NCBI GenBank assembly: GCA_964438075.1
Contig: CAYTIW010000007.1
Coordinates: forward strand, 10,596 to 74,595
Origin: an uncultured Planctomycetales bacterium
GTDB taxonomy: Bacteria; Omnitrophota; Gorgyraeia; Zapsychrales; Fredricksoniimonadaceae
Length of the DNA stretch: 64,000 nucleotides
Direction: 5' to 3'
Below the pieces are notes generated by a model, which saw only the letters and a program-made list of their open reading frames with translations, had not been told where the DNA came from and did no database searches. The position numbers and the translations under genes were made by a program. Positions within the stretch are counted from its first letter, which is position 1. Every line of letters starts with the position of its first letter. This document shows, one piece after another, positions 892 to 44,958 of the stretch.

Positions 892-903
892 AAAGAGCTC
901 GTA

Positions 904-3196
<2,293 letters not shown>

Positions 3197-4944: not shown

Positions 4945-5039
4945 TGCCTTTTTGCCCATTTTTACTTCAGCCCCCTGTCCTGGTGTTTTGCATCGTTGGG
5001 ATCGTTCGATGACTCTAAATAATGAAAGGGGCCGGTCCC

Positions 5040-7090: not shown

Positions 7091-7494
7091 ATAACAGCAG
7101 AGGGTTCACGCTGGCAGAGATAATGCTGGTGGTCATCATAATAGGGGCCTTGGCGGCCATGGTCGTCCCCCGCTTGTCCGGCCGGTCCGAACAGGCCCGT
7201 ATCGCCGTAGCCAAGGCGGATATAAAGACCAACATCCCTACCGCTTTAAAAATGTACGAGTTGGACAACGGAATGTATCCAACTACAGAGCAGGGTCTCC
7301 AGGCTCTCCGGGAAAAACCATCGTCCGCCCCGGCCCCCAGGTATTGGCACGGGCCTTATTTGGAACAGGATCCGGTGGACCCTTGGGGTAATCCTTACTT
7401 TTACGAATCACCGGGGACCCATCGCTCAGATTACGACTTATATTCCAAAGGCAAGGACCAGAATTCTCCCGATGGTTACATCACCAACTGGTAA
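7087..7494 (+). CDS. gspG: Major pseudopilin GspG
   Basis: 135 aa. The prepilin leader is MNNSRG|FTLAEIMLVVIIIG with Glu at +5. The conserved GspG core is ADIKTNIPTALKMYELDNGMYPTTEQGLQAL...WHGPYL...DPWGNPYFY...YDLYSKGKD. Confidence 0.9.
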   Translation: MNNSRGFTLAEIMLVVIIIGALAAMVVPRLSGRSEQARIAVAKADIKTNIPTALKMYELDNGMYPTTEQGLQALREKPSSAPAPRYWHGPYLEQDPVDPWGNPYFYESPGTHRSDYDLYSKGKDQNSPDGYITNW

Positions 7495-7933
7495 CAGGAC
7501 CGCCCACCGCCGAAGCTTTTTCCCGGACTCAAGGGTGGGGCTGACTTTCGTCGAGGTCATGGTCACCTCGGTAATACTATCGGCGGGGCTGGTGGCGATT
7601 TACCGGTCTTTCTTCATCGCAGCTGACGTCGTGCAGCATCTTTCCAACCGGCTTTACGCCCTGAATCTGCTGGAAAACAAGATCACAACGATAGAAAGGG
7701 ATTTCCGGTCGCGGAAAGATTTCGATATCGGCCCCTTGACTGAAGACGCCGTGGTGAATAATCATCCCGTGGTTTTTCAGTATCGAGTGGAACTAAAGCC
7801 GGTGGGCAGTCTTCTGACAGTGTTCCAGCTCGACATTTCCTTGTCCTGGGAGGAAAGGGGAAGGTTTCGGAGCGTTTCCCGTTCGGCCTATTTTTCCGGT
7901 GTGACCCCCTTGGAAAAGGGGGATGCCTCATGA
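7472..7933 (+). CDS. Minor pseudopilin (GspH/GspI-like)
   Basis: 153 aa. It has the prepilin-type N-terminus SRVG|LTFVEVMVTSVILSAGLVAIY with Glu at +5. The leader is unusually long if the ATG at 7472 is used, so the start is uncertain. Confidence 0.6.
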   Translation: MVTSPTGNRTAHRRSFFPDSRVGLTFVEVMVTSVILSAGLVAIYRSFFIAADVVQHLSNRLYALNLLENKITTIERDFRSRKDFDIGPLTEDAVVNNHPVVFQYRVELKPVGSLLTVFQLDISLSWEERGRFRSVSRSAYFSGVTPLEKGDAS

Positions 7934-8553
7934 GCTTTCGACACGAAAGGGGCCTTATGAAATCCTGCCGTAACTCCGGCTTTACTCTGGCCGAGGTCCT
8001 TTTGGTAACGGTCCTTTTCGCTTCCATAGGGCTGGTAGTTTTCAACTGCCTGAACAATGGCCTCAAACTATGGATGAGGAGCCAGAGCCTGGTTGACGAG
8101 CAGGATGCGATCGTTTTCTTTGACCGTATAGCCGGGCATTTGCGCAACGCCTTCCTTTATTCAGAGATCCAATTTGCCGGAGAGCCTGAACGGCTGGCAT
8201 TCCCGACGGTTGTTTATACCCCAGCGGACCGGGCAAGTTCGCGTGCCTGGGAAGGATACGTGGAACAGATAGGGATGGTCCGGTATTCCTTTGATGTCGC
8301 CCGAGGCAATGTCTTGCGTGAAGAGGCTGATTATTCTCTCGCCACCCGGGGCAGCTTCGGCCCGGCGAGAGTGGAAGTAAAAGGGGTCAAAGACCTCCGT
8401 TTCAGGTATTACTACTCCGGACACACAGAACCTTCCTTGACCGCTCACGATCAAAAGGCGCTGCCGGCCGGGGTGGAGGTGGAGATACGTTTGGCGGGAG
8501 ACGGCGCTGAGAAGGTGTTGAAACGCTATGTGCCTATCCCGGCGGGGAGTTGA
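7930..8553 (+). CDS. Minor pseudopilin (GspJ-like)
   Basis: 207 aa. The prepilin motif is NSG|FTLAEVLLVTVLFASIGLVVF. The ATG at 7930 overlaps the upstream stop (ATGA). An alternative ATG at 7957 gives the shorter leader MKSCRNSG. Confidence 0.65.
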   Translation: MSFRHERGLMKSCRNSGFTLAEVLLVTVLFASIGLVVFNCLNNGLKLWMRSQSLVDEQDAIVFFDRIAGHLRNAFLYSEIQFAGEPERLAFPTVVYTPADRASSRAWEGYVEQIGMVRYSFDVARGNVLREEADYSLATRGSFGPARVEVKGVKDLRFRYYYSGHTEPSLTAHDQKALPAGVEVEIRLAGDGAEKVLKRYVPIPAGS

Positions 8554-8554
8554 T

Positions 8555-9583
8555 ATGCGGGTATCGTCCAGCCAAGGCGGTTTTATATTGATCTTTACTC
8601 TGTGGGTGCTTGGTTTTCTTTCCGTTCTGGCTATCGCCGTCGGAATGGGTTCCCGGCAGAAGATCGCTTTTCTGGAAAGGCTGGAAGACCGCAGCCGGCA
8701 GCACCTGTCCGCAGAGGCCGGGGCCAAGAAGGCGCTCGCTTTGTTGGTCGACGATATCGAGAACAACAAGTTGGCTTTTAACGCCGAGGCCAAGTCCCGT
8801 AGGCATAATAATCCGGCTGATTTCTCCGGCATTGTTGTCGGCGATAACGGATTCGATGTCTTACACACGGTTTATGACGAAACATCCGGCGCCATGGTGG
8901 AACGCTATGGGGTTTCCGACGAGCAGGGAAAACTCAACCTTAACAACGTCAGTGGCGAACAGCTGGCCAGGCTCTTGGCAGACGTTTTGGGCATGACGAC
9001 CGAAGAGGCGCGGAAACAGTCCCAGGCTATTATAGACTGGCGCGATTATGGCAAACATGAAGCCGAAGGTTTTTTTAGCGACGATTATTATAAGAATCTC
9101 GAGCATCCTTATGAGATGAAGGAGAAGCCCTTCGAACGCATCGATGAACTCTTGCTGGTGAAGGGGCTTGATAATAATAAGTACCATAAATTGCTGCCGT
9201 TCGTCACGGTATGGGGAGATGGCAGGGTGAACATCAATACCGTTTCGGAGAGGGTCCTCGTTGCGCTGGGGCTGGATCCGGCAGTGGCAGAAAAGGTCCT
9301 TAAGGTCCGCCGGGGAACGGATGACCTTGAATCTACCAGCGACGACCATATATTCACCCGGGCTTTTGATGTTGCCGTTGAGGTCAAGGCGGTCTTGCCT
9401 CTGGAAGAACGCGAGATGCGGCAGATCGACGCCCTTAACACCCGCGGGCTGTTGTCGGCCAATTCTTTTTTGTATTCCATTCGAAGCCGGTCATTGCTGG
9501 CTGACGGAAAAACAGGCGGGGCAGAAGTGAACATGGTTTTTGATGCTTTGGCCAATAAAATCGTATTCTGGTTCGAAAAATAA
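8555..9583 (+). CDS. gspK: GspK-like minor pseudopilin
   Basis: About 342 aa from the ATG at 8555. The hydrophobic N-terminus QGGFILIFTLWVLGFLSVLAIAV lacks Glu+5, as in GspK. The size and the helix-hairpin-helix-like segments (LNLNNVSGEQLARLL, VNINTVSERVLVALGLD) fit GspK. Confidence 0.7.
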   Translation: MRVSSSQGGFILIFTLWVLGFLSVLAIAVGMGSRQKIAFLERLEDRSRQHLSAEAGAKKALALLVDDIENNKLAFNAEAKSRRHNNPADFSGIVVGDNGFDVLHTVYDETSGAMVERYGVSDEQGKLNLNNVSGEQLARLLADVLGMTTEEARKQSQAIIDWRDYGKHEAEGFFSDDYYKNLEHPYEMKEKPFERIDELLLVKGLDNNKYHKLLPFVTVWGDGRVNINTVSERVLVALGLDPAVAEKVLKVRRGTDDLESTSDDHIFTRAFDVAVEVKAVLPLEEREMRQIDALNTRGLLSANSFLYSIRSRSLLADGKTGGAEVNMVFDALANKIVFWFEK

Positions 9584-9649
9584 ATCAGTTTTGGGTTGAT
9601 TGACGGAAAAAGCTTAGTCTATAATGTAGCCATCAAATGCGGAGAAAAC

Positions 9650-11149
9650 ATGAAGCTTAAGCGGTCGCGATTCGTCAGCATAGCCATAAGTGCGACTTCG
9701 GTAAAGGTCGCTCTGATCAAAAGTTCAGGTTCCGTCGAGAGACTGGTAATCCGTAATATCGACAAGGGCAGTCCCGACAGCGCGCTGCAATCTGCTCTCA
9801 CCGGCCTGCCAGTGAAAGGCGCGGATATCCTTTGTGTGATCCCGGGTGAGGTGGCGACTACCAAGAACTTGGAGATCCCCTCAGTCGATCATGAAGAAAT
9901 TGAATCTATCCTGGCCCTGCAGGCCTCCCGGCATACTCCTTTCAACAAAGACGAGATATTGACCTCTTATATCAAACTCGGCAACCCGAGATCAAATTTT
10001 ACCCGGGTATTAATGATCGTTGTCAAACGGGACACCGTGAAAGATAAACTGGCTATCATCAAGCGCGCCGGTCTCAATATCAGCACGGTCATGTTCGTGC
10101 CTGAGGGCGTTGCGCGTTTTTATGCCGCGGCTCTCAAGGTGAAGAAGAACGATCTGCCGCTTGCGATAGTCGATGTCGGACTGCAGAACACGAATTTCAT
10201 GATCGAATCGCAATCCACGATCGTGATGTCACGCAATATACCCATTGGCATTCAGCAATTTGGCACCGACACTGAAGCGTCCAACTTTCTGGTCAAAGAG
10301 ATCAAGGCCTCCATGGATACTTATGAACAGGAGTCCGTCGACCGCAAGCCGGGACGTTTTATCCTTACTTCTAAACATGTGGCCTTGTCCGGGTTGGAGA
10401 CGCACATCGCGGCCATTATGCCCGGCGCCCGTTGCGAAATCGTACCCTACCAGAATTTAGTGAAGTCAGGCAAGGAGGTTAAAGAAGTACTGGCGAAGAG
10501 TTTTTCCGATGATTCCGCGCTGGACGTCATCGCTCCGGCGGTGGTGGCGGCGAAATGTCAGGCCGAACTGGTCCCGCAGGATATCAAGGACCAGCGGGCG
10601 ATCGTTGAAAAGGGACGGGCGACCTATATAGCGGGTGTGCTGATCACGCTTTTGTTGCTTTCGGTAGGAGGGGCTGTGATGAGCAAACTTTATTACAAGG
10701 ATACTTTCCTGAAAAGGAACCTGATCGCCAAGTACGCCTCCCAAAAGCAGGAAGTCAAGGACATCGAGACTTTGATGCGCAAGACCAAGATCCTGCGTGA
10801 ATATATGCAGACCCGCGACATAGCGCTGGAATCTATCCGTGAACTCTATCGGCTCACTCCACCGGAGATCTATTTCAATAACATCAGCCTGGATGAGGCT
10901 GACGGCAGTGTTTCGATCCAGGGGATAGCCGATGACATGTCGAACGTGTTTTCCTTCGTGCCCGCACTTGAGGCGTCCGCATTGTTCGAGGGAGTTAAGA
11001 CCAAGTCCACTTCGACGAAGAAAGACCGTGAAAAGACCGTGGCGGCATTCGAGATCGTGATGCAGTTGAGCAACCCCGACGGCAGAACAAAAGCCAAGCC
11101 GGTGAGTGAGGCGTCGGCTTCACCGGCGAAAACTGAGAAGGCAAAATAA
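9650..11149 (+). CDS. PilM-like actin-fold protein fused through a TM helix to a PilN-like domain (GspL analogue)
   Basis: About 499 aa from the ATG at 9650, with GGAG 5 nt upstream. The N-terminal roughly 330 aa resemble PilM (IAISATSVKVALIKS..., AIVDVGLQNTNFMI). A TM segment (YIAGVLITLLLLSVGGAVM) follows. The periplasmic domain ends in IYFNNISLDEADGSVSIQGIADD, typical of PilN/GspL C-termini. Confidence 0.7.
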   Translation: MKLKRSRFVSIAISATSVKVALIKSSGSVERLVIRNIDKGSPDSALQSALTGLPVKGADILCVIPGEVATTKNLEIPSVDHEEIESILALQASRHTPFNKDEILTSYIKLGNPRSNFTRVLMIVVKRDTVKDKLAIIKRAGLNISTVMFVPEGVARFYAAALKVKKNDLPLAIVDVGLQNTNFMIESQSTIVMSRNIPIGIQQFGTDTEASNFLVKEIKASMDTYEQESVDRKPGRFILTSKHVALSGLETHIAAIMPGARCEIVPYQNLVKSGKEVKEVLAKSFSDDSALDVIAPAVVAAKCQAELVPQDIKDQRAIVEKGRATYIAGVLITLLLLSVGGAVMSKLYYKDTFLKRNLIAKYASQKQEVKDIETLMRKTKILREYMQTRDIALESIRELYRLTPPEIYFNNISLDEADGSVSIQGIADDMSNVFSFVPALEASALFEGVKTKSTSTKKDREKTVAAFEIVMQLSNPDGRTKAKPVSEASASPAKTEKAK

Positions 11150-11160
11150 GGAGTCCCGCC

Positions 11161-11796
11161 TTGATCAATAATTTTATATCCGGACTGAAACCGGGCCAAA
11201 GGAAGGTGCTGGCGGTCCTGGCCGTTGTGCTCATATTGGGCCTGTTCGGGGGCATATTCCTTTATCCGGCTTGGAAAAGTTCGAACAAGATCGACGAATT
11301 GATCGCCAAGGAAAAGGAGACCGTCCGTAAGAACGCCCTTTTCTTGGCGAAACGCGAAAAAGCCGTGAAGGAAGCCGCGGTGTTCAAGGATTATTTCACT
11401 AAAGATGTGCGGAGTGAAGAGGAGGTGATCGCGGACCTTCTCAAGAGGCTTTTGCAGCTGGCCAATAATTCCGGGGTGCAGGTATCTAAACTTTCCACGC
11501 CTGTGCAGGAAATGCAAAAGGATTATCTATTGTATGTGGTTTCGGCAGACTGTACGGGCACATTAGAAAACCTGACCAATTTTATCTTCGCGATAAACAA
11601 CTCCCCGGAATTGATCAAGGTCTCCAAGATGCACCTGGGGAGCAGTGCGAATGCCAAGAATGCCGGAACCATACAGGCCAGTCTGACCATATCCAAGATG
11701 ATCATCGGTGCCGATCCATCCGTCGAGGCAAAGAAACTTGTACGTGTCCAGGAAAAGAAAGAAGCGGCGAAGCCCGCTGCCACATCCAAGGAATAG
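11161..11796 (+). CDS. PilO/GspM-like bitopic membrane protein
   Basis: 211 aa. It has a TTG start with AAGGAG 7 nt upstream, one TM helix (VLAVLAVVLILGLFGGIFLY), a coiled coil and a small C-terminal domain. It sits directly after the PilMN gene. Confidence 0.55.
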   Translation: MINNFISGLKPGQRKVLAVLAVVLILGLFGGIFLYPAWKSSNKIDELIAKEKETVRKNALFLAKREKAVKEAAVFKDYFTKDVRSEEEVIADLLKRLLQLANNSGVQVSKLSTPVQEMQKDYLLYVVSADCTGTLENLTNFIFAINNSPELIKVSKMHLGSSANAKNAGTIQASLTISKMIIGADPSVEAKKLVRVQEKKEAAKPAATSKE

Positions 11797-11830
11797 TCTT
11801 TTAGCCGCCGGCGTTTCGCCTGTCCCCATT

Positions 11831-12637
11831 ATGTCTCCACCATCCCGGATATTAATTAAGAAATCATTCCTTGTCCGCCTGATCTTCCTCCTGGTCTATT
11901 TCTGGTCCTTGCCTTGCCCGGCGGTGGAGGTCACGAAGGAGAATCTATTCCAGCTGGCCACTTTGGCTCTCAAGGATGGGGAATATGAGCATGCGGTGGA
12001 GTTCTTCAAAAAAGCCATCGAGTTAGATCCTAAATTCATCCCGGCCTACAACAGCCTCGGCATAATTTATGAGACCTCTGGTTTAAAGGACCTTAAAGAG
12101 GCGATCCGTTATTTCAAACTGGCCACGGAGATATCCCCGTCGTCTCAGGAGAGCTGGAACAATCTGGGCCGCGCCTATTACAGCAAAGGCGAGTTCACCC
12201 AGGCGGAAAGGGCCCTTTTGCGTTCATTGGAGCTCGATCCGGCCCAGCCGGAGGTGGAGGTCTCGTTGGGATGGATCTATCTGCTGGGCCAGTCGCGAGG
12301 TGCCGAGGCTATCAGTCATTTTGAAAAAGGCGGGGCGTATAAGGATAACCCCATGGTCTATTACGGCATGGGGCTGTCCTACCTCATCAAGGGTGAGCGT
12401 TTCAAGGTGCTTGATTCCATTACTGAGCTGCGCAAGAGAAAGAGGGAAGACCTCGCGCTCAGGCTGGAGGATATGGTAAAGAACAAGATAAAGCTGTCCT
12501 CGCAGGAGGGTACTCCGTTGATCACGGGCCTGGGGGCTGAACACTCGGCACTGAAAGAGGAACTCAAGGCGATGGGGAGATCTGATGGAGATACCGACGG
12601 AATAAAGGTGCGGTTGCGGGGGCCGATCCGGTATTGA
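11831..12637 (+). CDS. TPR-repeat protein with N-terminal signal/anchor (PilF/PilW-like by context)
   Basis: I prefer the ATG at 11831 (MSPPSRILIKKSFLVRLIFLLVYFWSLPCPA). Several TPR units are visible (ALKDGEYEHAVEFFKKAIELDPKFIPAYNSLGIIY, WNNLGRAYYSKGEFTQAERALLRSLELDP). Confidence 0.65.
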   Translation: MSPPSRILIKKSFLVRLIFLLVYFWSLPCPAVEVTKENLFQLATLALKDGEYEHAVEFFKKAIELDPKFIPAYNSLGIIYETSGLKDLKEAIRYFKLATEISPSSQESWNNLGRAYYSKGEFTQAERALLRSLELDPAQPEVEVSLGWIYLLGQSRGAEAISHFEKGGAYKDNPMVYYGMGLSYLIKGERFKVLDSITELRKRKREDLALRLEDMVKNKIKLSSQEGTPLITGLGAEHSALKEELKAMGRSDGDTDGIKVRLRGPIRY

Positions 12638-12692: not shown

Positions 12693-14354
12693 ATGGGACA
12701 GCTGGTTAACAGGATCAATAAATATTTCCTTGACCGGGCAGAGTTGTGGATACTGGGCCTGGGCATTTTGCTGCGATTGAAGCATTACCTCGAGAACCGT
12801 TCTTTGTGGCTGGATGAAGCTTGCGCGGCTGTCAGCGTGGCCAGCCGCAGCTATAACGAGATATTGAGCCATTATGAGGTCATGCCGGAGTTCGCGCACC
12901 CTCCGATGGTCTTCATGCTGATAGAGCGTTCACTGGTAGACCTCTTCGGCAATAACGAGATGTCATTGCGGTTGTTCCCGTTGCTTTGCGGGATCGCCGC
13001 CCTGTTGCTCTTTTTCCTGCTGACCCGCAGCATCCTTCCGCGGGGGGCGTTCCTGCTGGCACTGGCTCTCTTCGCCGTGATCGACCCCTTGGTCTATTAT
13101 TCCGCCGAGCTTAAGCAGTATTCTACCGACCTGGCGGTCATGATAGCTCTTTTGTTCTATAGCGAGGAATTCATCAAGGAGAAATGCTGCTGGATAAAGG
13201 CCGGTGTCCTGGCATTGCTGGGAGCGGCGGTATTATGGCTTTCCAACGCCATGGTCTTTATGCTGGCATCCATGGCCGCGGTATTTCTCTGGAGGGCGGT
13301 CAGGCGCAGGGATTGGGCCGAACTTTTACGTCTGGGGAGCGCCTTTTTTGTGTGGGCGGCCAGTTTCGCGGCGGTTTATCATTTGTCCTTGGGCCATATG
13401 GTCGGGAATGATAAACTTAAGGCTACTTGGGAAGGAGCCCTTTTCAAGGGAAGTCTTTTTTCCGGCGACGCCTTGGCCTGGCTCTGGCAGGTGGTGAGCG
13501 AAAGTTTCCGCAATCCCTTGGGGCTGGCCTGGCCCTTGGCTGGGGCCGTTCTCTTTGTGGTCGGTGTGCTCAGCCTGGTCCGGAACAACTCTGCACGTGC
13601 GGCGCTGCTGGCGTTGCCTATATTTTTTGCTTTGGTGGCCGGCTGGCTAGGCAAGTATCCTTTTCGAGGCCGGGTGCTGCTTTTTTTGGTGCCCTGTTAT
13701 CTGGTGCCTATCGCGGCTGGCGTTGAGGCCATAGCGGCAAAGATCGGGAATAAACGCTCCCATCGCGCCGTATGGGCGATATTGGCCATAGCGCTTCTGG
13801 CGTATCCTCTTCAGGTCGCGGCGCGGAACTTCATTCAGGGCCGCGAATGGGTGGAGAACCGCCCGGCAATGGAGTTCTTTCGGGACCATTATGAGCCGGG
13901 GGATTTCGTGGTGATGAACACCTCGGCCCAGCCGCCGTTCTGGTATTATGTCGGCAGCCTGGGTATCGGGGTCGAACTGCGGCGTGAACCCATCGGCCGG
14001 TTGGATGGCAAGACGGTGGAAGGGATGCGGGTCGCCAAGTTCGCCCGGGACATGGTAGCCACCAAGGACGGCCACCGTTTGGTAGCTTTCAGGTATGAGT
14101 ACCACATTTTTAATGAGAAAGGCCTTTTCCGCCAGATGGTGCTCCGTAATGCCCGGGAGGCGTATTTCGTCCGCGACGACAGGGCAGTGGAGGGCCTTCC
14201 TGCCGGGAGGGTCTGGCTGGTGCTGTCCCAAGCCCCGGAGGATGACGACCGCGAGATCAACGGCATCATCCGGGATGCGTTTGACCGGCGGGCGAAAAGG
14301 CTGCTGAGCTGCGAACGTATGAATGCAGCTGTGTACTTATATGACATGCAATAG
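12693..14354 (+). CDS. Polytopic GT-C-fold glycosyltransferase (GT39/PMT_2, ArnT-like)
   Basis: 553 aa with about 10 or more hydrophobic segments. The first loop carries NRSLWLDEA, the acidic DE motif typical of PMT_2/ArnT-type lipid-linked-sugar transferases. A soluble C-terminal domain follows. Confidence 0.6.
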   Translation: MGQLVNRINKYFLDRAELWILGLGILLRLKHYLENRSLWLDEACAAVSVASRSYNEILSHYEVMPEFAHPPMVFMLIERSLVDLFGNNEMSLRLFPLLCGIAALLLFFLLTRSILPRGAFLLALALFAVIDPLVYYSAELKQYSTDLAVMIALLFYSEEFIKEKCCWIKAGVLALLGAAVLWLSNAMVFMLASMAAVFLWRAVRRRDWAELLRLGSAFFVWAASFAAVYHLSLGHMVGNDKLKATWEGALFKGSLFSGDALAWLWQVVSESFRNPLGLAWPLAGAVLFVVGVLSLVRNNSARAALLALPIFFALVAGWLGKYPFRGRVLLFLVPCYLVPIAAGVEAIAAKIGNKRSHRAVWAILAIALLAYPLQVAARNFIQGREWVENRPAMEFFRDHYEPGDFVVMNTSAQPPFWYYVGSLGIGVELRREPIGRLDGKTVEGMRVAKFARDMVATKDGHRLVAFRYEYHIFNEKGLFRQMVLRNAREAYFVRDDRAVEGLPAGRVWLVLSQAPEDDDREINGIIRDAFDRRAKRLLSCERMNAAVYLYDMQ

Positions 14355-14365
14355 GAAGAAATGAT

Positions 14366-15172
14366 ATGGCTATTGAAGTAGCGGTGATCATCCCGAGCTA
14401 TAATGAACGTCCCAACGTCAAACCCATGCTGGAAAAACTAAGGGTTGCGCTCAATGGTATAGAGTGGGAAGTGATATATGTTGACGATAATTCTCCCGAC
14501 GGCACAGCTGAATGCGTATGGGAAGAGTCGCGCCTCGACCCAAGGGTCCGCTGCCTCAAGCGTATCGGCCGGCGCGGCCTGTCTTCCGCCTGCATCGAGG
14601 GCATGCTGTCCACTGCGGCGCCGTTCATGGCGGTGATGGATGGCGACCTTCAGCATGATGAAACTATCCTGCCCGATATGCTGGGGGCCCTCAGGACGGG
14701 AAAAGTGGATGTCATCGTCGGGAGCCGTTATGTGGCTGGGGGGGGCATAGAGGATTGGGCATTGCATCGCCAAGCGGCCAGCCGGTGGGCCACGCGTTTC
14801 GCCCAGTCAGTGGCCGGCATCCAGCTGCAGGACCCGATGAGCGGTTTTTTCATGCTGCGGAGGGATTTCTTCCAGAAATGCGTCGGTCAAATAAGCGGCA
14901 AAGGATTCAAGATACTGTTGGATATCCTGATGTCTTCGCGGGAAAAGGTGAATGTGATAGAGATACCTTACAAGTTCCGGATGCGCCAGCACGGTAAAAG
15001 CAAGCTGACGCCGAAGGTCATCCTGGACTATTTCTACCTGGTGTTCTACAAGATCTGCCAACGCAATCCTTGGTTGCTCTGGTTACTGGTTTCCACTGTG
15101 ATATTGCTGATGCTGGCGCTAGGGGCGCGCATGCACCTTTCCACCCCGATGGTAAAGACGACCTGGTGGTAA
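14366..15172 (+). CDS. Polyprenol-phosphate glycosyltransferase, GT2 (Dpm1/Ppm1/ArnC-like)
   Basis: 268 aa. Motifs are VIIPSYNERPNV, YVDDNSPDGT and the DxD-type MDGDLQHD. FRMRQHGKSKL and a C-terminal TM helix follow. Confidence 0.85.
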   Translation: MAIEVAVIIPSYNERPNVKPMLEKLRVALNGIEWEVIYVDDNSPDGTAECVWEESRLDPRVRCLKRIGRRGLSSACIEGMLSTAAPFMAVMDGDLQHDETILPDMLGALRTGKVDVIVGSRYVAGGGIEDWALHRQAASRWATRFAQSVAGIQLQDPMSGFFMLRRDFFQKCVGQISGKGFKILLDILMSSREKVNVIEIPYKFRMRQHGKSKLTPKVILDYFYLVFYKICQRNPWLLWLLVSTVILLMLALGARMHLSTPMVKTTWW

Positions 15173-15213
15173 ATGTAGACTGATCCGAGTTGTCAGGTCT
15201 GGTTCTTATCAAA

Positions 15214-15252
15214 ATAAAAAAACCTTCTTCCGGAATGGAAGAAGGTTTTTTG
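15214..15252. terminator. Bidirectional rho-independent terminator
   Basis: The 9-bp stem is CCTTCTTCC (15223-15231) / GGAAGAAGG (15237-15245) with loop GGAAT. An A-run lies on the left and a T-run on the right. It sits between the convergent GT2 gene and tRNA-Ala. Confidence 0.65.
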
Positions 15253-15299
15253 TTTTGATGAGGCCGGACCTTTCGGCACGATGTCCGGCATATAAAAAC

Positions 15300-15376
15300 T
15301 GGTGGACCGGATGGGGGTCGAACCCACGACCTCCTCATTGCGAACGAGGCGCTCTCCCAAACTGAGCTACCGGCCC
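15300..15376 (-). tRNA. tRNA-Ala (anticodon CGC), CCA encoded
   Basis: The reverse complement reads GGGCCGGTAGCTCAGTTTGGGAGAGCGCCTCGTTCGCAATGAGGAGGTCGTGGGTTCGACCCCCATCCGGTCCACCA. It folds by hand into a cloverleaf with a 7-bp acceptor stem including the G3:U70 Ala identity pair. The D arm is GCTC/GAGC, the anticodon loop is TTCGCAA and the T loop is TTCGACC. Confidence 0.92.
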
Positions 15377-15491
15377 ATATAGTGTATAAATATGTTCGAG
15401 CTGAAAATTTGCTCGAGAGGGGATATAGTAACAAAAGCATGGTAAAAAAACAAGTGTCTATCCGCGAAAACAAGAGCCCGCTCCGGCAGTC

Positions 15492-18023
15492 TTAGAGATC
15501 CTTGGGCCAGGATACTTCGTAGAGGTAGACGCGCGTCCGACCCGTGAGGTCGCGTTCGAGAGCGAAAGGATGGAAATATTTCAGCCCTTTGCCTTCGAAA
15601 TAATACATTTTGACTACCAGCGAATTGGCCAGGACCCGGTCCATCAGGACGACTTTGGGAATGCCTTCGTCCTTATAAAACACCAGGGAGTATCCCAGGT
15701 TAGCCCCGGACAATTTTTTCTCTACCACCGCTTTCTGATCATCGTCCAGGTAGACCACGCTTTGCGGTATGCCGCGGCCGAACTTTGGCGAATCTATCGT
15801 GGCGGTCATATCGGCCGTGTTTACGACAATGCCGTTCTCAAATATTATTTTAGGCCCGTCGCTGGCCATCGCCCCGATGGACTGCGATTGTTTGAAAGGC
15901 CCGCCGACCAGGCTCCAGAGGAAATCGACAAAGCCGGGAGAGGATTTTCCCGGCACTTTACTCAGCGCTTCCGGGTCCCGGTTGAGCCTTTCGATCTTGG
16001 CGAAGTCCCATTTTCCCACATATCCCAGCAGCACGTTCCCTTCGACTATTTCATGGTAGATGAGAACGTAGGAAGGAGGTGGCACGACCGCGCTGCCGTG
16101 GGTCAGGCTCAAAAGATGCGTGACATTCTGTTGGGGAAGGACCTTCAGGAGCGCTCGTTCCGCCTCGGCTTTTTTTAACCTGGTGATCTCTAAGATCAGC
16201 GGTACCGCCTTGGATAGCGGCAGGTCCAGGCTTTGCAGGTATTCGGCGGCGCGGTTAGAACTGGTATTCAGCATGCGCAGTATACCCAGGGCATCACGTT
16301 CGTTCTGCGCCAGGTATACCTTGGTCATCCAGAATCCCTGTTCGCCGCGTATAGAGGCGCCGTCAAAGGTTACACGCCGCCGGCTGACGGCCTTGACAAA
16401 ATGGCCCGGCGACCACCAGGTATTGACGATACTGTCGGGAGGGGAGTAGTCGCGCAGGCGGGTCAGCGCACGATCCCAAGTGGAATTGAAAATGGGGTTC
16501 AACAGCGAGCGTATAGTGGTATGGCTGATGATGATCGGCAAAGCCACCGATACTATTATGAGCGTCCCGAGGATCTTTTCCAGCATCACGGCGGGTTTCT
16601 CTGACAGTCTGAACAGACCCGATAGCGCATGGCGGCCTTGCCAAATTTGATCCAACCCCAGAGCGAACAGGAGCGCGACGGGGGTGACGCTCAGCATGGC
16701 GAAACGCTGGGCGCTCAGGCTGAGCACCAGGGTGCTGGCAAGGAAAATGGCCAGAGTGATCATTTCATCAGAAGGCGCTTTGCGTTTGAGCAGGGACATG
16801 ACACCGAACCAGACCAGGGTGGCAATTGCCCCGAAGAATGGCACGGGCCCGCCGTTGAACTCCACGATCTCTTTCAGCGTGGCACGTTTCAGTTCTCCCA
16901 CGACTATGAAGAGGTCCGGCCAGTCCTTGAGCCTGGGGGCGGTGAATTTTTGCAGTTCTCCCCAGGCCGCGGTCATAGTCTCGAAGAACTGCGGCAGGCC
17001 GATCATCATAGTGACGGCCAGCACAGGCACGGCGATGAACAGGGCCAACAAAAACCCTATACGCGGCAGGCGCTGCTCTTTCAGCAGCCAGGCCTTGCCG
17101 GCGATGAGAACGACCGAGAAGACGGTCAGCGCCCAAAGATATCCCCAGCCCGGCCAGAAACGGGAATACAAGGCCGCTGTTAACGCCGAGAGAACGGAGA
17201 ACAGGAGCAGTCGCCGCTTCTCGCTGGTGTTTTTAAGCGCCAGGAAGAAGAATGCCAGGCCAAGGAGCGGGAAAAGCACGGTATAGGTGTCGTTGTCGTA
17301 CCAGGCATAGGTGCTGCGTTTAAGATATATCTGGGAAAGGACAAAAAAGACGCCAGCCGTGAAAGAGGAAAGCGGCGAACAGCCCATAGCATGGCAGGCC
17401 AGCAGGAATGCGGCTACCACCAGCGGCAAAAGGAAGATAGGGGTCCAGGCCACCCCGGACATAAGGTCGGTATCCGGAGCCAAGGCCCGTACGGTCCGGT
17501 ATACCCAGGCTCCGACGTAAGGATGCCAGAGCTGGGGTTCCCAGAATCCCAGGGGAGCCAGCATCAGGTTGTTGAAATAGCGGCTGCCCTTAACCTGAGG
17601 GCTTACGTCGCCTTCTTTCAGGATGTTCTCTGTTAAGTTCAGGAAATAATAGGAGTCTGACTCCTGCAGATAGCGTTTCTGGTTACCGGACCGCTGCGAG
17701 AGCTCATATCCCAGCTCATCGAAAGCCTTGCGGAGTTTGGCATTATCCTTGCGTATTATCTCGTTGACCTTGGCGGATAAAAGGAGTGTCTTCTTGGCCG
17801 GAGGCAGCTCAGGGTACTGGGCATTGATTTGGGCGGCTATCTTGCTTCGCAAGTGGTTTATGACCAGGAGAGTGGCCTGTTCGTAGGCGTCCGAGGCAAC
17901 ATTGTGATATAGGGGATACAGGCGTACCTGTATCCCGATCATGCATATTGCCAAACCTATTAAGAGCCAGGTGATAAGTTTTCGCAGGGGATATCCGTTG
18001 GGCATGGGGTCTGTTTGATTCAA
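15492..18023 (-). CDS. STT3/AglB/PglB-family oligosaccharyltransferase-like membrane protein
   Basis: 843 aa with an N-terminal polytopic domain and a C-terminal soluble domain. ESDSYYF (aa 121-127) resembles the EL1 acidic motif. YAWYDNDTY (aa 239-247) aligns with eukaryotic STT3 GSYDNE. IVVGEL is a possible TIxE/SVSE-type motif. NTWWSPGHF (WWSPGH encoded at 16401-16418) sits in place of WWDYG. Confidence 0.7.
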   Translation of the reverse strand: MNQTDPMPNGYPLRKLITWLLIGLAICMIGIQVRLYPLYHNVASDAYEQATLLVINHLRSKIAAQINAQYPELPPAKKTLLLSAKVNEIIRKDNAKLRKAFDELGYELSQRSGNQKRYLQESDSYYFLNLTENILKEGDVSPQVKGSRYFNNLMLAPLGFWEPQLWHPYVGAWVYRTVRALAPDTDLMSGVAWTPIFLLPLVVAAFLLACHAMGCSPLSSFTAGVFFVLSQIYLKRSTYAWYDNDTYTVLFPLLGLAFFFLALKNTSEKRRLLLFSVLSALTAALYSRFWPGWGYLWALTVFSVVLIAGKAWLLKEQRLPRIGFLLALFIAVPVLAVTMMIGLPQFFETMTAAWGELQKFTAPRLKDWPDLFIVVGELKRATLKEIVEFNGGPVPFFGAIATLVWFGVMSLLKRKAPSDEMITLAIFLASTLVLSLSAQRFAMLSVTPVALLFALGLDQIWQGRHALSGLFRLSEKPAVMLEKILGTLIIVSVALPIIISHTTIRSLLNPIFNSTWDRALTRLRDYSPPDSIVNTWWSPGHFVKAVSRRRVTFDGASIRGEQGFWMTKVYLAQNERDALGILRMLNTSSNRAAEYLQSLDLPLSKAVPLILEITRLKKAEAERALLKVLPQQNVTHLLSLTHGSAVVPPPSYVLIYHEIVEGNVLLGYVGKWDFAKIERLNRDPEALSKVPGKSSPGFVDFLWSLVGGPFKQSQSIGAMASDGPKIIFENGIVVNTADMTATIDSPKFGRGIPQSVVYLDDDQKAVVEKKLSGANLGYSLVFYKDEGIPKVVLMDRVLANSLVVKMYYFEGKGLKYFHPFALERDLTGRTRVYLYEVSWPKDL

Positions 18024-18041: not shown

Positions 18042-18785
18042 TTACTTTTTTTTGCCTGGCTTATCAAGGCTAATATCAGCAAAGTGGATCTTGTCGGCCG
18101 GGACCGCGAAGAGTTCCCGCTCCGCCGAAAGCCGTTTGGAACTGATGAGCCCGATGAGGCGGCCGGCACGATCGAAGACCGGTCCGCCGCTGTCACCGGA
18201 ATAGTGGTTGATGTTCAGGCGCAACAGTTCGACTTTAAGGCCCCGTTCAGTCCGTCGGGTGGCAAGCCCGGATATTATACCGCCGGATATGGTGCCCCTT
18301 AAGAGGTCTGAATGACCAATAGTGGTGATCTTTTCCCCCAGAACGGTCTGGTTCGGTTCAGCGAATTCGACCGCTTTAAGCGGGCGGTCTGTTCTGATCT
18401 GGAGAATGGAAAAATCGTCTTCTCTGGATATAAAGAGTATGCGGGCCGGGATCTCTTTACCGTCTCGGAAGGTCACTAGGATCTCCTGTGATCCGAATAT
18501 GATATGGGTGTTGGTGACGATATGGCCGTCGGAGGATATTATCACCCCGGCACCTTTTTTTTCCTGGAATTGCAGCCTCCTCGCGGTCATTGCCATCAGG
18601 CCTCCGGTCCGGGGATCTACCGTGACCCGGGCATCCGGGACAGAGGCCATCTGGTAGGTCTTGCCGGTGACGGTCACGACAGAATCGTACTTGTTCTGCA
18701 GCAGCTCAATGGCATTCATTTCGGCCGCCGGAGATGGTCCCGCAGCCAGGAATGTGAGGAGGGCCAGGAAGAAAGCGATAGGCAT
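18042..18785 (-). CDS. Secreted trypsin-like serine protease (S1 family, no PDZ domain)
   Basis: 247 aa. The signal peptide is MPIAFFLALLTFLAAGPSPA. The His region is GHIVTNTHI, the Asp region is DDFSILQI and the catalytic Ser motif is GDSGGPVF. Confidence 0.8.
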   Translation of the reverse strand: MPIAFFLALLTFLAAGPSPAAEMNAIELLQNKYDSVVTVTGKTYQMASVPDARVTVDPRTGGLMAMTARRLQFQEKKGAGVIISSDGHIVTNTHIIFGSQEILVTFRDGKEIPARILFISREDDFSILQIRTDRPLKAVEFAEPNQTVLGEKITTIGHSDLLRGTISGGIISGLATRRTERGLKVELLRLNINHYSGDSGGPVFDRAGRLIGLISSKRLSAERELFAVPADKIHFADISLDKPGKKK

Positions 18786-31067: not shown

Positions 31068-31164
31068 GATTGCATGTTTCTGCCTTTGGGCCTGCCAATA
31101 ACCTGTCGGAGCGATCTTTGTCCGGCCTTTACCTCACGGGTCATTAAGAAATACAACACCGTCG

Positions 31165-41800: not shown

Positions 41801-41985
41801 ACAACATGTAATTGGTCTAAGTCTTATGCAGTTGGTGATGCGGTAGTATCGTGCCGGAATCGGGATTATCCTTATAAAACTCCGGACATGTTTTTTACTT
41901 GTTCCTATACTTAAAGTTAACATAACATATATTATAGGAAGTTAGTAATCAAAAAAAGATGGCTCCTGCTTTTTTTGAAATGCAT

Positions 41986-43493: not shown

Positions 43494-43530
43494 GGGAAAT
43501 CATTATTCCAGGAGGGCAAATACAACTTTA

Positions 43531-44034: not shown

Positions 44035-44112
44035 TTTAATTCCTTTGATCCAGATATAAGTATAACATAACTTGAAAAAAGTAAAAAATCGCAAATCAAT
44101 AACGGGTGTTTT

Positions 44113-44895: not shown

Positions 44896-44958
44896 TGAAT
44901 AAATTTTAGCCTATTATAGAAAATAAATAAAATATAAACACGGATTTTGTATCTTTGT

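What the first reader, a model, noticed from the sequence alone, without database searches (positions are those of the whole stretch)
12693..18023. Bacterial STT3-like oligosaccharyltransferase with a WWSPG variant motif, clustered with Dpm1-like and GT39-like enzymes next to the pseudopilin operon
Seen: the 843-aa membrane protein carries ESDSYYF, YDNDTY and NTWWSPGHF (encoded at 16401-16418), in the order and spacing of the EL1 acidic motif, the DxD/DNE motif and WWDYG of STT3/AglB/PglB. The Asp of WWD, which contacts the +2 Ser/Thr of the sequon, is Ser here. A polyprenol-phosphate hexosyltransferase (14366-15172) and a PMT_2/ArnT-like GT-C (12693-14354, SLWLDEA loop) lie alongside. The cluster begins 56 nt after the pilus operon ends. 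Established: PglB-type N-glycosylation in bacteria is known mainly from Campylobacterota and some Desulfobacterota, and pilins are frequent glycosylation targets. Inference: this is a lipid-linked glycosylation pathway with altered acceptor specificity, possibly acting on the adjacent pseudopilins or other envelope proteins.
Basis: partly seen in the sequence, partly recalled or inferred. Interest (0 to 1): 0.55.

Follow-up and report, generated by a model that had tools for sequence, protein, structure and literature searches.

The report
Omnitrophota STT3 enzyme lacking sequon-binding Asp
This is a real STT3/PglB-type glycan-transferring membrane enzyme, typical of a large Omnitrophota-wide clade that keeps the whole catalytic machinery but has rebuilt the pocket that normally reads the Ser/Thr of N-x-S/T, and it is always paired with a protease and usually sits beside a type II secretion-like pilus operon, so it probably glycosylates an unknown, non-standard target.

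Summary
The 843-aa (probably 837-aa) minus-strand protein belongs to the STT3 family: Pfam PF02516 scores 75 bits against a cutoff of 24.5, and the AF2 model (pLDDT 88.9) matches PglB best (E 1e-19).

Comparison shows a bigger picture. At least 150 clusters at 50% identity and at least 143 species genomes, nearly all Omnitrophota, form one clade. D123, E377 and R440 are invariant in 176/176 sequences, and D243/D245 nearly so. The WWD Asp is never present (Pro 101, Ser 56, Ala/Cys/Thr 18), and the next residue is an invariant Pro. Single changes at these positions inactivate C. jejuni PglB.

The conserved partners are not the Dpm1-like GT2 and the PMT_2 GT-C, which occur in only 7 and 9 of 80 loci. 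They are an HtrA-like serine protease, translationally coupled upstream (58/71 loci), and a convergent T2SS-like operon (51/63 loci; the other flank is conserved in 0/52). Outgroups with canonical WWD sit in ordinary glycan-assembly clusters.

Best reading: an active lipid-linked-glycan transferase with non-N-x-S/T acceptor specificity, functionally tied to the protease and probably to the endopilus system. The acceptor is unknown. I rate it a new variant of a known kind, not described in the searchable literature.

The parts
15492..18023 (-). STT3/AglB/PglB-family GT-C enzyme (843 aa from the TTG at 18023; more likely 837 aa from the ATG at 18005). Catalytic residues D123, D243, D245, E377 and R440; remodelled WWSPGH motif.
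   Evidence: Pfam PF02516 75.1 bits vs cutoff 24.5. PDB profile hits STT3A 3e-23, AglB 2e-19, PglB 3e-15. AF2 pLDDT 88.9. Foldseek top hits PglB E 1e-19. hhalign to C. lari PglB. Start codon.
16401..16418 (-). Codons for WWSPGH (aa 536-541), the counterpart of WWDYG-Y/H.
   Evidence: Translation. Motif census: WWPPGH 81, WWSPGH 52, WWPPGY 28, none with Asp. Column frequencies.
18042..18785 (-). HtrA-like, PDZ-less periplasmic serine protease (247 aa, Sec signal), directly upstream of the STT3 gene in the same operon.
   Evidence: Pfam Trypsin_2 1.7e-24. PDB DegP/MucD/HtrA1 about 1e-16. Triad TN.H / D / GDSGGP conserved in 66 sequences. Directly upstream in 58/71 loci. Median gap 10 nt, with many 4-nt overlaps.
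15300..15376 (-). tRNA-Ala(CGC) downstream of the STT3 gene.
   Evidence: Rfam 60.7 bits. ARAGORN. Recurs in close relatives only.
15217..15251 (.). Perfect 15-16 bp hairpin flanked by T/A runs: a bidirectional terminator between the two convergent units.
14366..15172 (+). Dpm1-like polyprenol-phosphate mannose (hexose) synthase, GT2 with a C-terminal TM helix. Accessory: present in 7/80 loci.
   Evidence: Pfam GT2 5.9e-29. PDB 5mlz DPMS 4.8e-45. NCBIfam best hits PgfS/AglJ/ArnC, all below cutoff. Synteny.
12693..14354 (+). PMT_2-type GT-C glycosyltransferase (553 aa) with invariant D41-E42 in the SLWLDEA loop. Accessory: present in 9/80 loci.
   Evidence: Pfam PMT_2 34.5 bits vs cutoff 26.1. 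Alignment A3. AF2 pLDDT 94.6. Generic GT-C fold matches ALG12/OST/ArnT/ALG9/Pmt4. NCBI names relatives 'glycosyltransferase family 39 protein'.
11708..12637 (+). TPR protein (PilW/PilF/Tgl-like), last conserved gene of the T2SS-like operon.
11161..11796 (+). PilO-like protein.
   Evidence: Orthologues carry Pfam PilO. tblastn synteny.
9596..11149 (+). PilM-PilN fusion protein.
   Evidence: Orthologues carry PilM_2 + PilN. Synteny.
8528..9583 (+). GspK-like minor pseudopilin.
   Evidence: Pfam T2SSK_1st 6.8e-16
7930..8553 (+). GspJ-like minor pseudopilin.
   Evidence: Pfam T2SSJ/N_methyl, weak
7472..7933 (+). Minor pseudopilin-like protein with no Pfam hit.
   Evidence: Orthologue in L006 has N_methyl.
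7087..7494 (+). GspG-type major pseudopilin.
   Evidence: Pfam T2SSG 4.2e-32, N_methyl. Sequence.
6248..7090 (+). Peptidase_MA_2 metallopeptidase inside the operon.
   Evidence: Conserved in loci.
5022..6251 (+). GspF platform protein.
   Evidence: Pfam T2SSF 2.5e-59
3199..4944 (+). GspE ATPase with an MshEN domain.
   Evidence: Pfam T2SSE 4.6e-131, MshEN 2.1e-19

Best explanation
The 843-aa protein is a catalytically competent, single-subunit inner-membrane glycosyltransferase of the STT3/AglB/PglB (GT-C) family. It represents a large Omnitrophota-wide clade. Shown: it keeps every residue that in PglB and STT3 binds the metal, activates the acceptor amide and holds the phosphate of the lipid-linked donor. 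These are D123, D243/D245, E377 and R440, plus the His/Tyr after the Gly and the D-G of DGGK. Inferred: it still takes a polyprenyl-(pyro)phosphate-linked glycan, probably with a 2-acetamido sugar at the reducing end, and transfers it in the periplasm to an acceptor held between D123 and E377, most simply an Asn side chain. Shown: the half of the active site that reads the +2 Ser/Thr of N-x-S/T has been rebuilt and then frozen. WWD-Y-G has become WW-[P/S/A/C/T]-P-G-[H/Y]-F, with no Asp in any of 176 sequences, and the position aligned with the DK/MI Lys/Ile is unconserved. Inferred: the enzyme does not use the N-x-S/T sequon and recognises some other feature of its target. Shown: the gene is the second gene of a two-gene operon with an active HtrA-like, PDZ-less periplasmic serine protease. 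In about 80% of species this operon converges on the end of a T2SS-like (GspE/F/G/J/K, PilM-N-O, TPR) operon, while the other flank is not conserved. Inferred, with lower confidence: protease and transferase act on the same substrate, and that substrate is a component or cargo of the endopilus machine. The Dpm1-like GT2 and PMT_2 GT-C in this window are a lineage-specific add-on at the end of the T2SS-like operon. They form a separate polyprenol-P-hexose-dependent, single-sugar glycosylation module, and the STT3 enzyme does not depend on them.
For: Family: Pfam STT3 75 bits vs GA 24.5; profile hits to STT3A, AglB and PglB; AF2 pLDDT 88.9 / pTM 0.86; Foldseek PglB E 1e-19, TM 0.66-0.69, against DPY19 3e-7, ArnT 1e-4, PMT 3e-4. 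Catalytic residues: D123, E377 and R440 176/176, D245 175, D243 170. Residue equivalences: D123 = STT3A D49; D243/245 = D154/156, E377 = E319, R440 = R375, D554 = DGGK Asp. Roles of these residues: PMC7226087, PMC8342417. Remodelled pocket: Asp never present; D459V, Y460N/C and G461D each inactivate C. jejuni PglB (PMC3527161). Protease partner. Specific T2SS adjacency: 51/63 against 0/52 for the other flank. Canonical-WWD outgroups lie in ordinary GT/flippase clusters. GT2/PMT_2 are accessory: 7 and 9 of 80 loci, on the other strand beyond a terminator and a tRNA gene.
Against: There is no biochemical or glycoproteomic evidence, and neither donor nor acceptor has been identified. The convergent arrangement with the T2SS-like operon is not co-transcription, and 12 of 63 loci lack it. 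No lipid-linked-oligosaccharide assembly genes lie nearby. The C-terminal core-domain Pfam model is below threshold (16.8 vs 23 bits). The placement of the DK/MI motif rests on a 22-24%-identity alignment. I could not inspect model coordinates, so the metal-site geometry was not measured. D123 and E377 are also metal ligands, so their conservation alone does not prove an Asn acceptor.
Confidence: 0.55

Rival explanations
1. It is an ordinary N-x-S/T oligosaccharyltransferase. The two Trp indoles, plus Ser538 in this sub-lineage, suffice to bind the +2 hydroxyl, so the motif change is neutral drift.
For: Both Trp are invariant and the rest of the active site is intact. In the window's own sub-clade the residue is Ser, which can form hydrogen bonds. 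A partly conserved N-Y-S site exists in the GspJ-like pseudopilin (54% of orthologues).
Against: Most of the clade has Pro at this position and an invariant Pro in place of Tyr. That pattern shows new constraint, not drift. Single D459V and Y460N/C substitutions inactivate C. jejuni PglB. The DK/MI-equivalent position is unconserved. N-x-S/T is not enriched or conserved in neighbouring secreted or pilin proteins.
Confidence: 0.12
2. The STT3 fold has been re-purposed to transfer a lipid-linked glycan to a non-protein acceptor, such as a glycan, a lipid or peptidoglycan, or to a non-Asn residue. The peptide-reading pocket was therefore lost.
For: Both elements of the Ser/Thr pocket are lost while the donor-side residues are kept. 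There is no conserved sequon in neighbours. GT-C relatives with the same fold act on Trp (DPY19), on lipid A (ArnT) or on arabinan (AftA).
Against: The new motif WW-x-P-G-H-F is as conserved as WWDYG, and the two Trp remain, so a defined ligand still binds there. E377, which twists the Asn amide in PglB, is invariant. Coupling to a protease and a protein-secretion operon points to a protein substrate.
Confidence: 0.2
3. One reading: the Dpm1-like synthase, the PMT_2 GT-C and the STT3 enzyme together form one lipid-linked glycosylation pathway.
For: The three genes are adjacent in this window and in close relatives. The GT2 is DPMS-like and could supply a polyprenol-P-sugar.
Against: GT2 and PMT_2 are absent from more than 85% of species that have the STT3-protease pair. 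They are on the other strand, continuing the T2SS-like operon, beyond a terminator and a tRNA gene. A DPMS plus a GT-C already make a self-sufficient two-enzyme module. Some relatives carry a different cassette (Epimerase_2 + GT2 + GT-C + a small ORF).
Confidence: 0.08
4. It is a catalytically dead pseudo-enzyme that serves as a membrane scaffold or chaperone for the protease or the secretion system.
For: A motif essential for activity in canonical enzymes is lost. No donor-assembly genes lie nearby.
Against: All metal-binding, amide-activating and phosphate-binding residues are invariant across sequences down to 32% identity. That is not expected for a protein that no longer catalyses.
Confidence: 0.05

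Closest known systems
Campylobacter PglB (bacterial single-subunit N-oligosaccharyltransferase, GT66)
   Same: Best structural match (E 1e-19, TM 0.66-0.69). Single-subunit membrane enzyme with a periplasmic C-terminal domain. Equivalent D56/D154/D156/E319/R375 residues and the D-G of DGGK.
   Different: Only 13-14% identity. WWDYG is replaced by WW[P/S]PG[H/Y], with no Asp. The MxxI position is not conserved. It is not in a pgl-type cluster with PglC/PglA/PglK-like genes; instead it is paired with a protease beside a T2SS-like operon.
Archaeal AglB (for example A. fulgidus AglB-L; TIGR04154 archaeosortase-associated STT3)
   Same: Profile E 1.6e-19. His after the Gly, as in AfAglB WWDYGH. The closest canonical relatives found include a Woesearchaeota protein. 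AglB glycosylates type IV pilin-like proteins such as archaellins and pilins (PMC5131992 abstract), which parallels the pilus-operon context here. The TIGR04154 name records an OST associated with a protein-sorting peptidase.
   Different: TIGR04154 scores 33.8 bits against a 450 cutoff. The WWD Asp is absent. The host is bacterial. The protease partner is an HtrA-type serine protease, not an archaeosortase.
Eukaryotic STT3A/STT3B
   Same: Best sequence-profile hit (3e-23). ESDSYYF aligns with EFDPYF (D49) and YDNDT with YDNE.
   Different: No partner subunits. No DNNTWNNT double-sequon motif (FDGAS instead). The Asp of WWD is lost.
DPY19 C-mannosyltransferase and other GT-C enzymes with an STT3-like fold but other acceptors
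   Same: Precedent that this fold can be retuned to a different acceptor. DPY19 is the next structural hit after the OSTs (E 3e-7).
   Different: This protein is far closer to true OSTs by both sequence and structure, and it keeps the OST catalytic residues.
Polyprenol-P-sugar synthase plus GT-C two-enzyme modules (DPMS/PMT, ArnC/ArnT, GtrB/Gtr; pilin-modifying GT-C TfpW, the last from my own knowledge)
   Same: The GT2 at 14366-15172 is DPMS-like (5mlz, 4.8e-45). The 553-aa protein has PMT_2, an invariant D-E loop and a GT-C fold. The pair sits at the end of a pilus-type operon.
   Different: No MIR domains, and no solved subfamily stands out. The acceptor is unknown. The pair is present only in a sub-lineage.

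Membership tests
STT3/AglB/PglB oligosaccharyltransferase (Pfam PF02516, CAZy GT66) | N-terminal multi-TM STT3 domain above Pfam's gathering score | tested here: met
   75.1 bits vs 24.5, residues 116-455. All 45 homologues carry PF02516.
STT3/AglB/PglB oligosaccharyltransferase (Pfam PF02516, CAZy GT66) | Overall fold: GT-C membrane domain plus C-terminal periplasmic mixed alpha/beta domain, closest to solved OSTs | tested here: met
   AF2 pLDDT 88.9. The top 21 Foldseek hits are all PglB, STT3 or AglB.
STT3/AglB/PglB oligosaccharyltransferase (Pfam PF02516, CAZy GT66) | First acidic motif in EL1 (PglB D56 / STT3A D49) | tested here: met
   D123 176/176; aligned to STT3A D49
STT3/AglB/PglB oligosaccharyltransferase (Pfam PF02516, CAZy GT66) | Second DxD/DxE motif (PglB D154/D156) | tested here: met
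   D243 170/176, D245 175/176; hhalign WYDNDT ~ GYYDTD
STT3/AglB/PglB oligosaccharyltransferase (Pfam PF02516, CAZy GT66) | TIXE/SVSE Glu in EL5 (PglB E319) | tested here: met
   V-G-E377-L; E 176/176; hhalign places E377 on E319
STT3/AglB/PglB oligosaccharyltransferase (Pfam PF02516, CAZy GT66) | Arg that binds the donor (pyro)phosphate (PglB R375) | tested here: met
   R440-F441; R 176/176; aligned to R375-F376
STT3/AglB/PglB oligosaccharyltransferase (Pfam PF02516, CAZy GT66) | WWDYG / WWDxG motif with the Asp that binds the +2 Ser/Thr hydroxyl | tested here: not met
   WWSPGH here. Among 176 clade members position 3 is P101, S56, A7, C6, T5 and D0; position 4 is Pro in 173.
STT3/AglB/PglB oligosaccharyltransferase (Pfam PF02516, CAZy GT66) | DK or MI motif completing the Ser/Thr pocket | tested here: inconclusive
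   By alignment to canonical outgroups (M-I-G-K-S-G-V-W) the Lys/Ile position is K45/Q42/G37/N27. The alignment is at 22-24% identity and no solved structure could be aligned there.
STT3/AglB/PglB oligosaccharyltransferase (Pfam PF02516, CAZy GT66) | DGGK (or DNxTxNxT/S) motif | tested here: inconclusive
   F-D554-G555-A-S: D 174 and G 175 are conserved, the third position is A/G, and Lys is replaced by T/S.
STT3/AglB/PglB oligosaccharyltransferase (Pfam PF02516, CAZy GT66) | C-terminal STT3/PglB/AglB core domain (PF21436) above the gathering score | tested here: not met
   16.8 bits vs 23, E 0.01
STT3/AglB/PglB oligosaccharyltransferase (Pfam PF02516, CAZy GT66) | Transfers a lipid-linked glycan en bloc to Asn of N-x-S/T | not testable with these tools
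   Needs biochemistry or glycoproteomics.
Campylobacter-type pgl N-glycosylation locus | OST gene embedded among LLO-assembly genes (initiating phosphoglycosyltransferase, GT4/GT2 glycosyltransferases, flippase) | tested here: not met
   None in the window around the gene or in clade loci. Present around the canonical-WWD outgroups.
TIGR04154 archaeosortase-A-associated STT3 (AglB subfamily) | Score at or above the NCBIfam cutoff | tested here: not met
   33.8 bits vs 450
Dpm1/DPMS-type polyprenol-phosphate hexose synthase (GT2) | GT2 catalytic domain, close similarity to a characterised DPMS, membrane anchor | tested here: met
   PF00535 101.6 bits. 5mlz DPMS E 4.8e-45 over residues 3-227. 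Hydrophobic C-terminal segment in the sequence. No NCBIfam equivalog reaches its cutoff, and the sugar specificity was not tested.
PMT_2 / GT39-GT83-type GT-C glycosyltransferase | PMT_2 domain above cutoff, acidic D-E loop after TM1, GT-C fold | tested here: met
   34.5 vs 26.1 bits. D41 and E42 invariant in 28 sequences. GT-C fold matches.
Eukaryotic/actinobacterial protein O-mannosyltransferase (GT39 proper) | Closest structural or sequence match to PMT; MIR domains in eukaryotes | tested here: not met
   No PDB sequence hit. Pmt4 is only the 24th fold hit (3e-4), behind ALG12, the OSTs and ArnT. No MIR domain in Pfam.
Type II secretion system | GspE, GspF, GspG, minor pseudopilins H-K, GspC/L/M and the secretin GspD | tested here: inconclusive
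   GspE, F, G, J-like and K are present. PilM-N/PilO stand in for GspL/M. No secretin, GspC or prepilin peptidase lies in the operon. Hence 'T2SS-like'.

The most novel reading that the evidence does not exclude
Omnitrophota carry a phylum-wide, previously undescribed class of STT3-type enzyme. It performs protein glycosylation that does not depend on the N-x-S/T sequon, using a new acceptor motif and possibly a new acceptor residue. It acts on a component or cargo of a T2SS-like endopilus machine, together with a dedicated co-translated serine protease. This would be a processing-coupled glycosylation system with no characterised bacterial counterpart.
Probability: 0.3. Interest if true: 0.8.

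Novelty: new variant of a known kind. Interest (0 to 1): 0.62.

Why it matters
The reviews consulted describe the WWD motif as conserved across all three domains of life and as the structural reason for the N-x-S/T sequon. This clade would be a natural exception: a large, strongly constrained bacterial group that keeps the catalytic core but replaces the sequon-reading Asp and Tyr. It offers a direct way to ask how OST acceptor specificity can evolve. It may also supply enzymes with new acceptor rules for glycoengineering, where relaxed or alternative sequons are actively sought (for example PMC12229607 and PMC4894442, listed). It points to protein or envelope glycosylation as a conserved trait of Omnitrophota, an uncultured phylum of ultra-small, probably predatory or parasitic bacteria whose secretion and pilus systems are thought to be central to their lifestyle. 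Finally, the tight coupling of protease and OST is a testable new functional association.

Tried and rejected
(1) Non-OST GT-C families (ArnT, PMT, DPY19, AftA) were rejected. Pfam gives only STT3, and the fold hits to those families are 12 or more orders of magnitude weaker than to PglB.

(2) I tried to locate the DK/MI motif against solved structures. phmmer and hmmsearch alignments stop at the DGG motif, so only an alignment to canonical outgroups was possible.

(3) Looking for the acceptor: N-x-S/T counts and conservation in GspG, two minor pseudopilins, GspK and the protease showed no enrichment and no well conserved site. Inspection of conserved Asn contexts gave no common alternative motif.

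(4) Looking for donor-assembly genes: Pfam scans of about 35 window ORFs found no initiating transferase and no flippase.

(5) Literature: four searches combining Omnitrophota or Omnitrophica with STT3, oligosaccharyltransferase, PglB or N-glycosylation found nothing relevant. Two Omnitrophota genome papers mention T2SS/T4P loci but no STT3.

(6) Sub-family assignment of the PMT_2 protein by structure gave no clear winner.

(7) Taxon names for the most distant clade members: only one of ten carried a name, and it was Omnitrophica.

(8) General synteny as an explanation for the T2SS adjacency was rejected, because the opposite flank is conserved in 0/52 loci.

(9) Metal-site geometry could not be measured, because model coordinates are not exposed by the tools.

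Full report
OBSERVATION. The three ORFs are present as described: a 553-aa protein at 12693-14354 (+), a 268-aa protein at 14366-15172 (+), and an 843-aa protein at 15492-18023 on the minus strand. The large protein contains ESDSYYF (121-127), YDNDTY (242-247), VVGELK (374-379) and NTWWSPGHF (534-542). A 97%-identical database protein starts at the internal Met (MPNGYPL...), so the real start is probably the ATG at 18005, giving 837 aa. The STT3 gene converges on the other two genes and is separated from them by a perfect bidirectional terminator hairpin (15217-15251) and a tRNA-Ala(CGC) gene (15300-15376). The PMT_2 and GT2 genes continue the + strand T2SS-like operon after a 55-nt gap. The STT3 gene belongs to a separate minus-strand operon with the gene at 18042-18785.

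FAMILY ASSIGNMENT. Pfam PF02516 scores 75.1 bits (E 1e-20) against a cutoff of 24.5, and no other GT-C family appears. A profile of the family hits human STT3A (3e-23), A. fulgidus AglB (1.6e-19) and C. lari PglB (2.7e-15) among solved structures. An AlphaFold2 model built on 21 sequences is confident (pLDDT 88.9, pTM 0.86). Its only soft region is the EL5 loop, which is also flexible in PglB. Foldseek ranks PglB first (E 1e-19, target TM 0.66-0.69), then yeast and human STT3 and AglB (about 1e-13). DPY19 (3e-7), AftA (1e-5), ArnT (1e-4) and Pmt4 (3e-4) lie far behind. The C-terminal core-domain model PF21436 is below threshold (16.8 vs 23 bits), and the archaeal subfamily model TIGR04154 is far below its cutoff (33.8 vs 450).

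THE CLADE. Homologues at 32-97% identity are annotated, where they are named at all, as Candidatus Omnitrophota or Omnitrophica. An exhaustive HMM search of 1.84 billion representatives returned 150 cluster representatives above 520 bits, which is the list limit, so the true number is larger. A pattern scan of one genome per GTDB species found relatives in 143 species. Almost all carry Omnitrophota names or are bulk-labelled MAGs, and the only named distant member I checked is also Omnitrophica. The next relatives outside the clade (P0042 from a Woesearchaeota archaeon, and P0043-45) share only 22-24% identity and carry canonical WWDFG or WWDYG.

WHAT IS CONSERVED AND WHAT IS NOT. In 176 full-length clade members:
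- D123 is 176/176, D243 170, D245 175, E377 176/176 (within [T/V]-V-G-E), and R440 176/176 (followed by F441 in 168).
- In the DGGK counterpart, D554 is 174 and G555 is 175.
- D123 aligns with STT3A D49.
- I rebuilt C. lari PglB residues 97-483 from the alignment printed. A profile comparison against that fragment aligns D243/D245 with D154/D156, E377 with E319, R440 with R375, WWSPG with WWDYG (463-467) and D554 with the DGGK Asp (probability 76%, E 2e-5).

According to the structural literature, D56 and E319 hold and twist the acceptor Asn amide. Together with D154/D156 they bind the metal. R375 binds the pyrophosphate. [quoted passage not shown] Here that last residue is His in 142 sequences and Tyr in 33; AfAglB also has His.

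The WWD Asp, in contrast, is absent from every clade sequence. Position 538 is Pro 101, Ser 56, Ala 7, Cys 6 and Thr 5. Position 539 is Pro in 173 of 176, in place of Tyr/Phe. G540, H/Y541 and F542 are essentially fixed. The window's WWSPGH is therefore the second most common form of a clade-wide WW[P/S/A/C/T]PG[H/Y]F motif. The distribution over identity classes suggests that Ser belongs to the window's sub-lineage and that Pro is the widespread state. The position that aligns with the Lys of the outgroups' DK/MI-type motif is unconserved (K45, Q42, G37, N27), but this rests on a low-identity alignment. WWD and DK/MI together form the Ser/Thr pocket that explains the N-x-S/T sequon. In C. jejuni PglB the single substitutions D459V, Y460N/C and G461D abolish activity in well-expressed protein (PMC3527161). 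Total conservation of the chemistry-side residues, combined with a rebuilt and re-frozen recognition side, is what I would expect from a change of acceptor specificity, and does not fit either decay or neutral drift.

GENOMIC CONTEXT. Five clade loci at 33-54% identity to the window protein all show the same arrangement. A 225-261-aa Trypsin_2 protease gene lies immediately upstream on the same strand. The 3' end of the STT3 gene faces the end of an operon encoding GspE (MshEN, often with PilZ), GspF, a Peptidase_MA_2, a GspG pseudopilin, two or three small pseudopilins, GspK, a PilM-PilN fusion, PilO and a TPR protein. I quantified this over the 80 species-level loci by tblastn with the window's proteins:
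- The protease is directly upstream in 58 of 71 loci with enough flank.
- The T2SS-like core genes are convergent downstream in 51 of 63.
- The GT2 occurs in 7 and the PMT_2 gene in 9 of 80, almost all in the window's own sub-lineage. That same sub-lineage carries the tRNA-Ala gene.
- The gap from the protease stop to the STT3 start has a median of 10 nt, and eleven loci show 4-nt overlaps, which suggests a translationally coupled operon.
- In loci that lack the T2SS-like operon the protease-STT3 pair is still intact, and unrelated genes (PAS histidine kinases and others) follow.
- As a control for general synteny, the window's genes on the far side of the protease (NfeD-like, SPFH, glutaredoxin-like, AIR-synthase-like) occur in 0 of 52 loci with at least 4 kb of that flank.
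- The canonical-WWD outgroups sit in ordinary glycan-assembly neighbourhoods: GT2s, radical SAM, Wzx-type flippase, GT4s, a WecA-type initiating transferase and an ABC transporter. They have no protease and no T2SS genes.

The protease is HtrA-like (DegP/MucD/HtrA1 about 1e-16). It has a signal peptide, no PDZ domain and an intact His/Asp/Ser triad conserved across 66 sequences.

THE TWO ACCESSORY GLYCOSYLTRANSFERASES. The GT2's best solved relative is P. furiosus dolichol-phosphate mannose synthase (5mlz, E 4.8e-45). ArnC follows at 6e-9. The protein ends in a hydrophobic segment. 'Dpm1-like' is therefore correct, although no NCBIfam equivalog is reached. The 553-aa protein passes the PMT_2 threshold, has an invariant D41-E42 in the SLWLDEA loop and models with high confidence (pLDDT 94.6) as a generic GT-C. 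ALG12, the OSTs, ArnT, ALG9 and Pmt4 all match at similar E-values of 1e-6 to 3e-4, and there is no PDB hit by sequence. NCBI calls its relatives 'glycosyltransferase family 39 protein'. Together the two proteins form the familiar self-sufficient module in which a polyprenol-P-hexose synthase supplies a periplasmic GT-C. Some relatives instead carry Epimerase_2, a GT2, a GT-C and a small ORF at the same place. That glycosylation cassettes are repeatedly inserted at the end of this pilus-type operon is mild extra support for the idea that products of the operon are glycosylated. The cassettes are not part of the conserved STT3 system.

MECHANISM PROPOSED. Shown: family, fold, conservation of the catalytic and donor-binding residues, loss of the sequon-reading Asp/Tyr, the protease operon and the specific T2SS-like adjacency. 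Inferred from the established PglB/AglB/STT3 mechanism: the enzyme binds a divalent metal through D123, D243, D245 and E377. It binds a polyprenyl-(pyro)phosphate-linked glycan through R440 and the H/Y541 and D554-G555 region. It transfers the glycan in the periplasm to a nucleophile held between D123 and E377, most simply an Asn amide. Inferred from the remodelled pocket and the PglB mutant data: the acceptor is not defined by N-x-S/T. Inferred from synteny alone, at lower confidence: the protease acts on the same substrate, and that substrate belongs to or passes through the endopilus machine. A canonical sequon scan of the pseudopilins and the protease shows no enrichment (for example GspG 0.80 observed vs 0.92 expected). 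The only partly conserved site is QANYSQ in the GspJ-like protein, in 54% of orthologues. This is consistent with a non-canonical rule but gives no positive evidence for any target. No donor-assembly genes lie nearby, so the donor is presumably borrowed from another envelope-glycan pathway.

RIVALS. A canonical OST (0.12) is hard to reconcile with Pro-Pro in place of Asp-Tyr. A non-protein or non-Asn acceptor (0.20) cannot be excluded with these tools. A pseudo-enzyme (0.05) conflicts with the invariant catalytic residues.

NOVELTY AND SCORE. NCBI already labels some of these proteins 'STT3 domain-containing protein', so the existence of the gene is not new. I found no description of the clade, its altered motif, its protease partner or its T2SS-like context in the searchable literature. 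The reviews consulted state that WWD is conserved in all three domains. I rate it a new variant of a known kind, with interest 0.62. The finding is computationally robust and phylum-wide, and it touches a textbook rule, but neither the acceptor nor the activity has been demonstrated.

Noticed in passing
window 15217-15376: A tRNA-Ala(CGC) gene and a perfect bidirectional terminator lie between the GT2 and STT3 genes. The tRNA recurs downstream of the STT3 gene, in either orientation, only in the close-relative sub-clade that also carries the GT2/PMT_2 (or Epimerase_2/GT2/GT-C) cassette. The cassette may have been inserted at a tRNA-adjacent hotspot.
   Followed up: partly
window 28099-32610 (-): A second PMT_2-type GT-C (31165-32610) sits next to a 493-aa protein with no Pfam hit (29586-31067) and a B12-binding radical-SAM enzyme (28099-29589). 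A radical-SAM/B12 gene also sits beside the canonical-WWD STT3 in outgroup locus L007.
   Followed up: no
window 41900-45000: Low-GC island (GC 0.38-0.44 against about 0.53 elsewhere) with three minus-strand ORFs that have no Pfam hit (41986-42837, 43531-44094, 44113-44895) and a HAD hydrolase (42834-43493). It may have been acquired horizontally.
   Followed up: no
window 6248-7090; also L001, L003, L005, L006 and most of L010-L089: A Peptidase_MA_2 zinc-metallopeptidase gene is conserved between GspF and the major pseudopilin gene. The operon has no prepilin peptidase (A24), secretin, GspC or GspL/M; a PilM-PilN fusion, PilO and a PilW/Tgl-like TPR protein take their place. This is an unusual T2SS/T4P hybrid.
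   Followed up: partly
window 3199-4944 vs L003 20808-, L006 21367-: The GspE ATPase has an N-terminal MshEN (c-di-GMP-binding) domain. In distant relatives it is 740-747 aa with an extra C-terminal PilZ domain, which the 581-aa window protein lacks.
   Followed up: no
L005/L022 12862-16672; also L013, L015, L016, L018: An alternative accessory cassette sits at the same position: UDP-GlcNAc 2-epimerase-like (Epimerase_2), a GT2, a 532-aa PMT_2-like GT-C and a 113-aa ORF. This suggests a different sugar (for example ManNAc-derived) in those lineages.
   Followed up: no
GspJ-like pseudopilin, window 7930-8553 and orthologues: One N-x-S/T site (consensus QANYSQ) is present in 54% of 50 orthologues, with the Asn in 76%. 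It is the only partly conserved canonical sequon among the pilus proteins examined.
   Followed up: partly
L058 (JBLINE010000007.1, labelled Lysobacterales): An 11-kb contig binned as Lysobacterales carries the complete Omnitrophota-type STT3 and T2SS-like arrangement. It is probably a mis-binned Omnitrophota contig. Many 'uncultured Planctomycetales' labels in the same list look like default names.
   Followed up: no
window 39722-41800; L006 326-2431: A cNMP-binding and patatin-like phospholipase fusion (692-701 aa) occurs both in the window, about 22 kb from the STT3 gene, and about 8 kb upstream of the STT3 gene in the most distant clade locus.
   Followed up: no
window 136-3196: ATP-synthase-like genes (OSCP/delta, gamma, alpha/beta-type) lie directly upstream of GspE on the same strand.
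   Followed up: no
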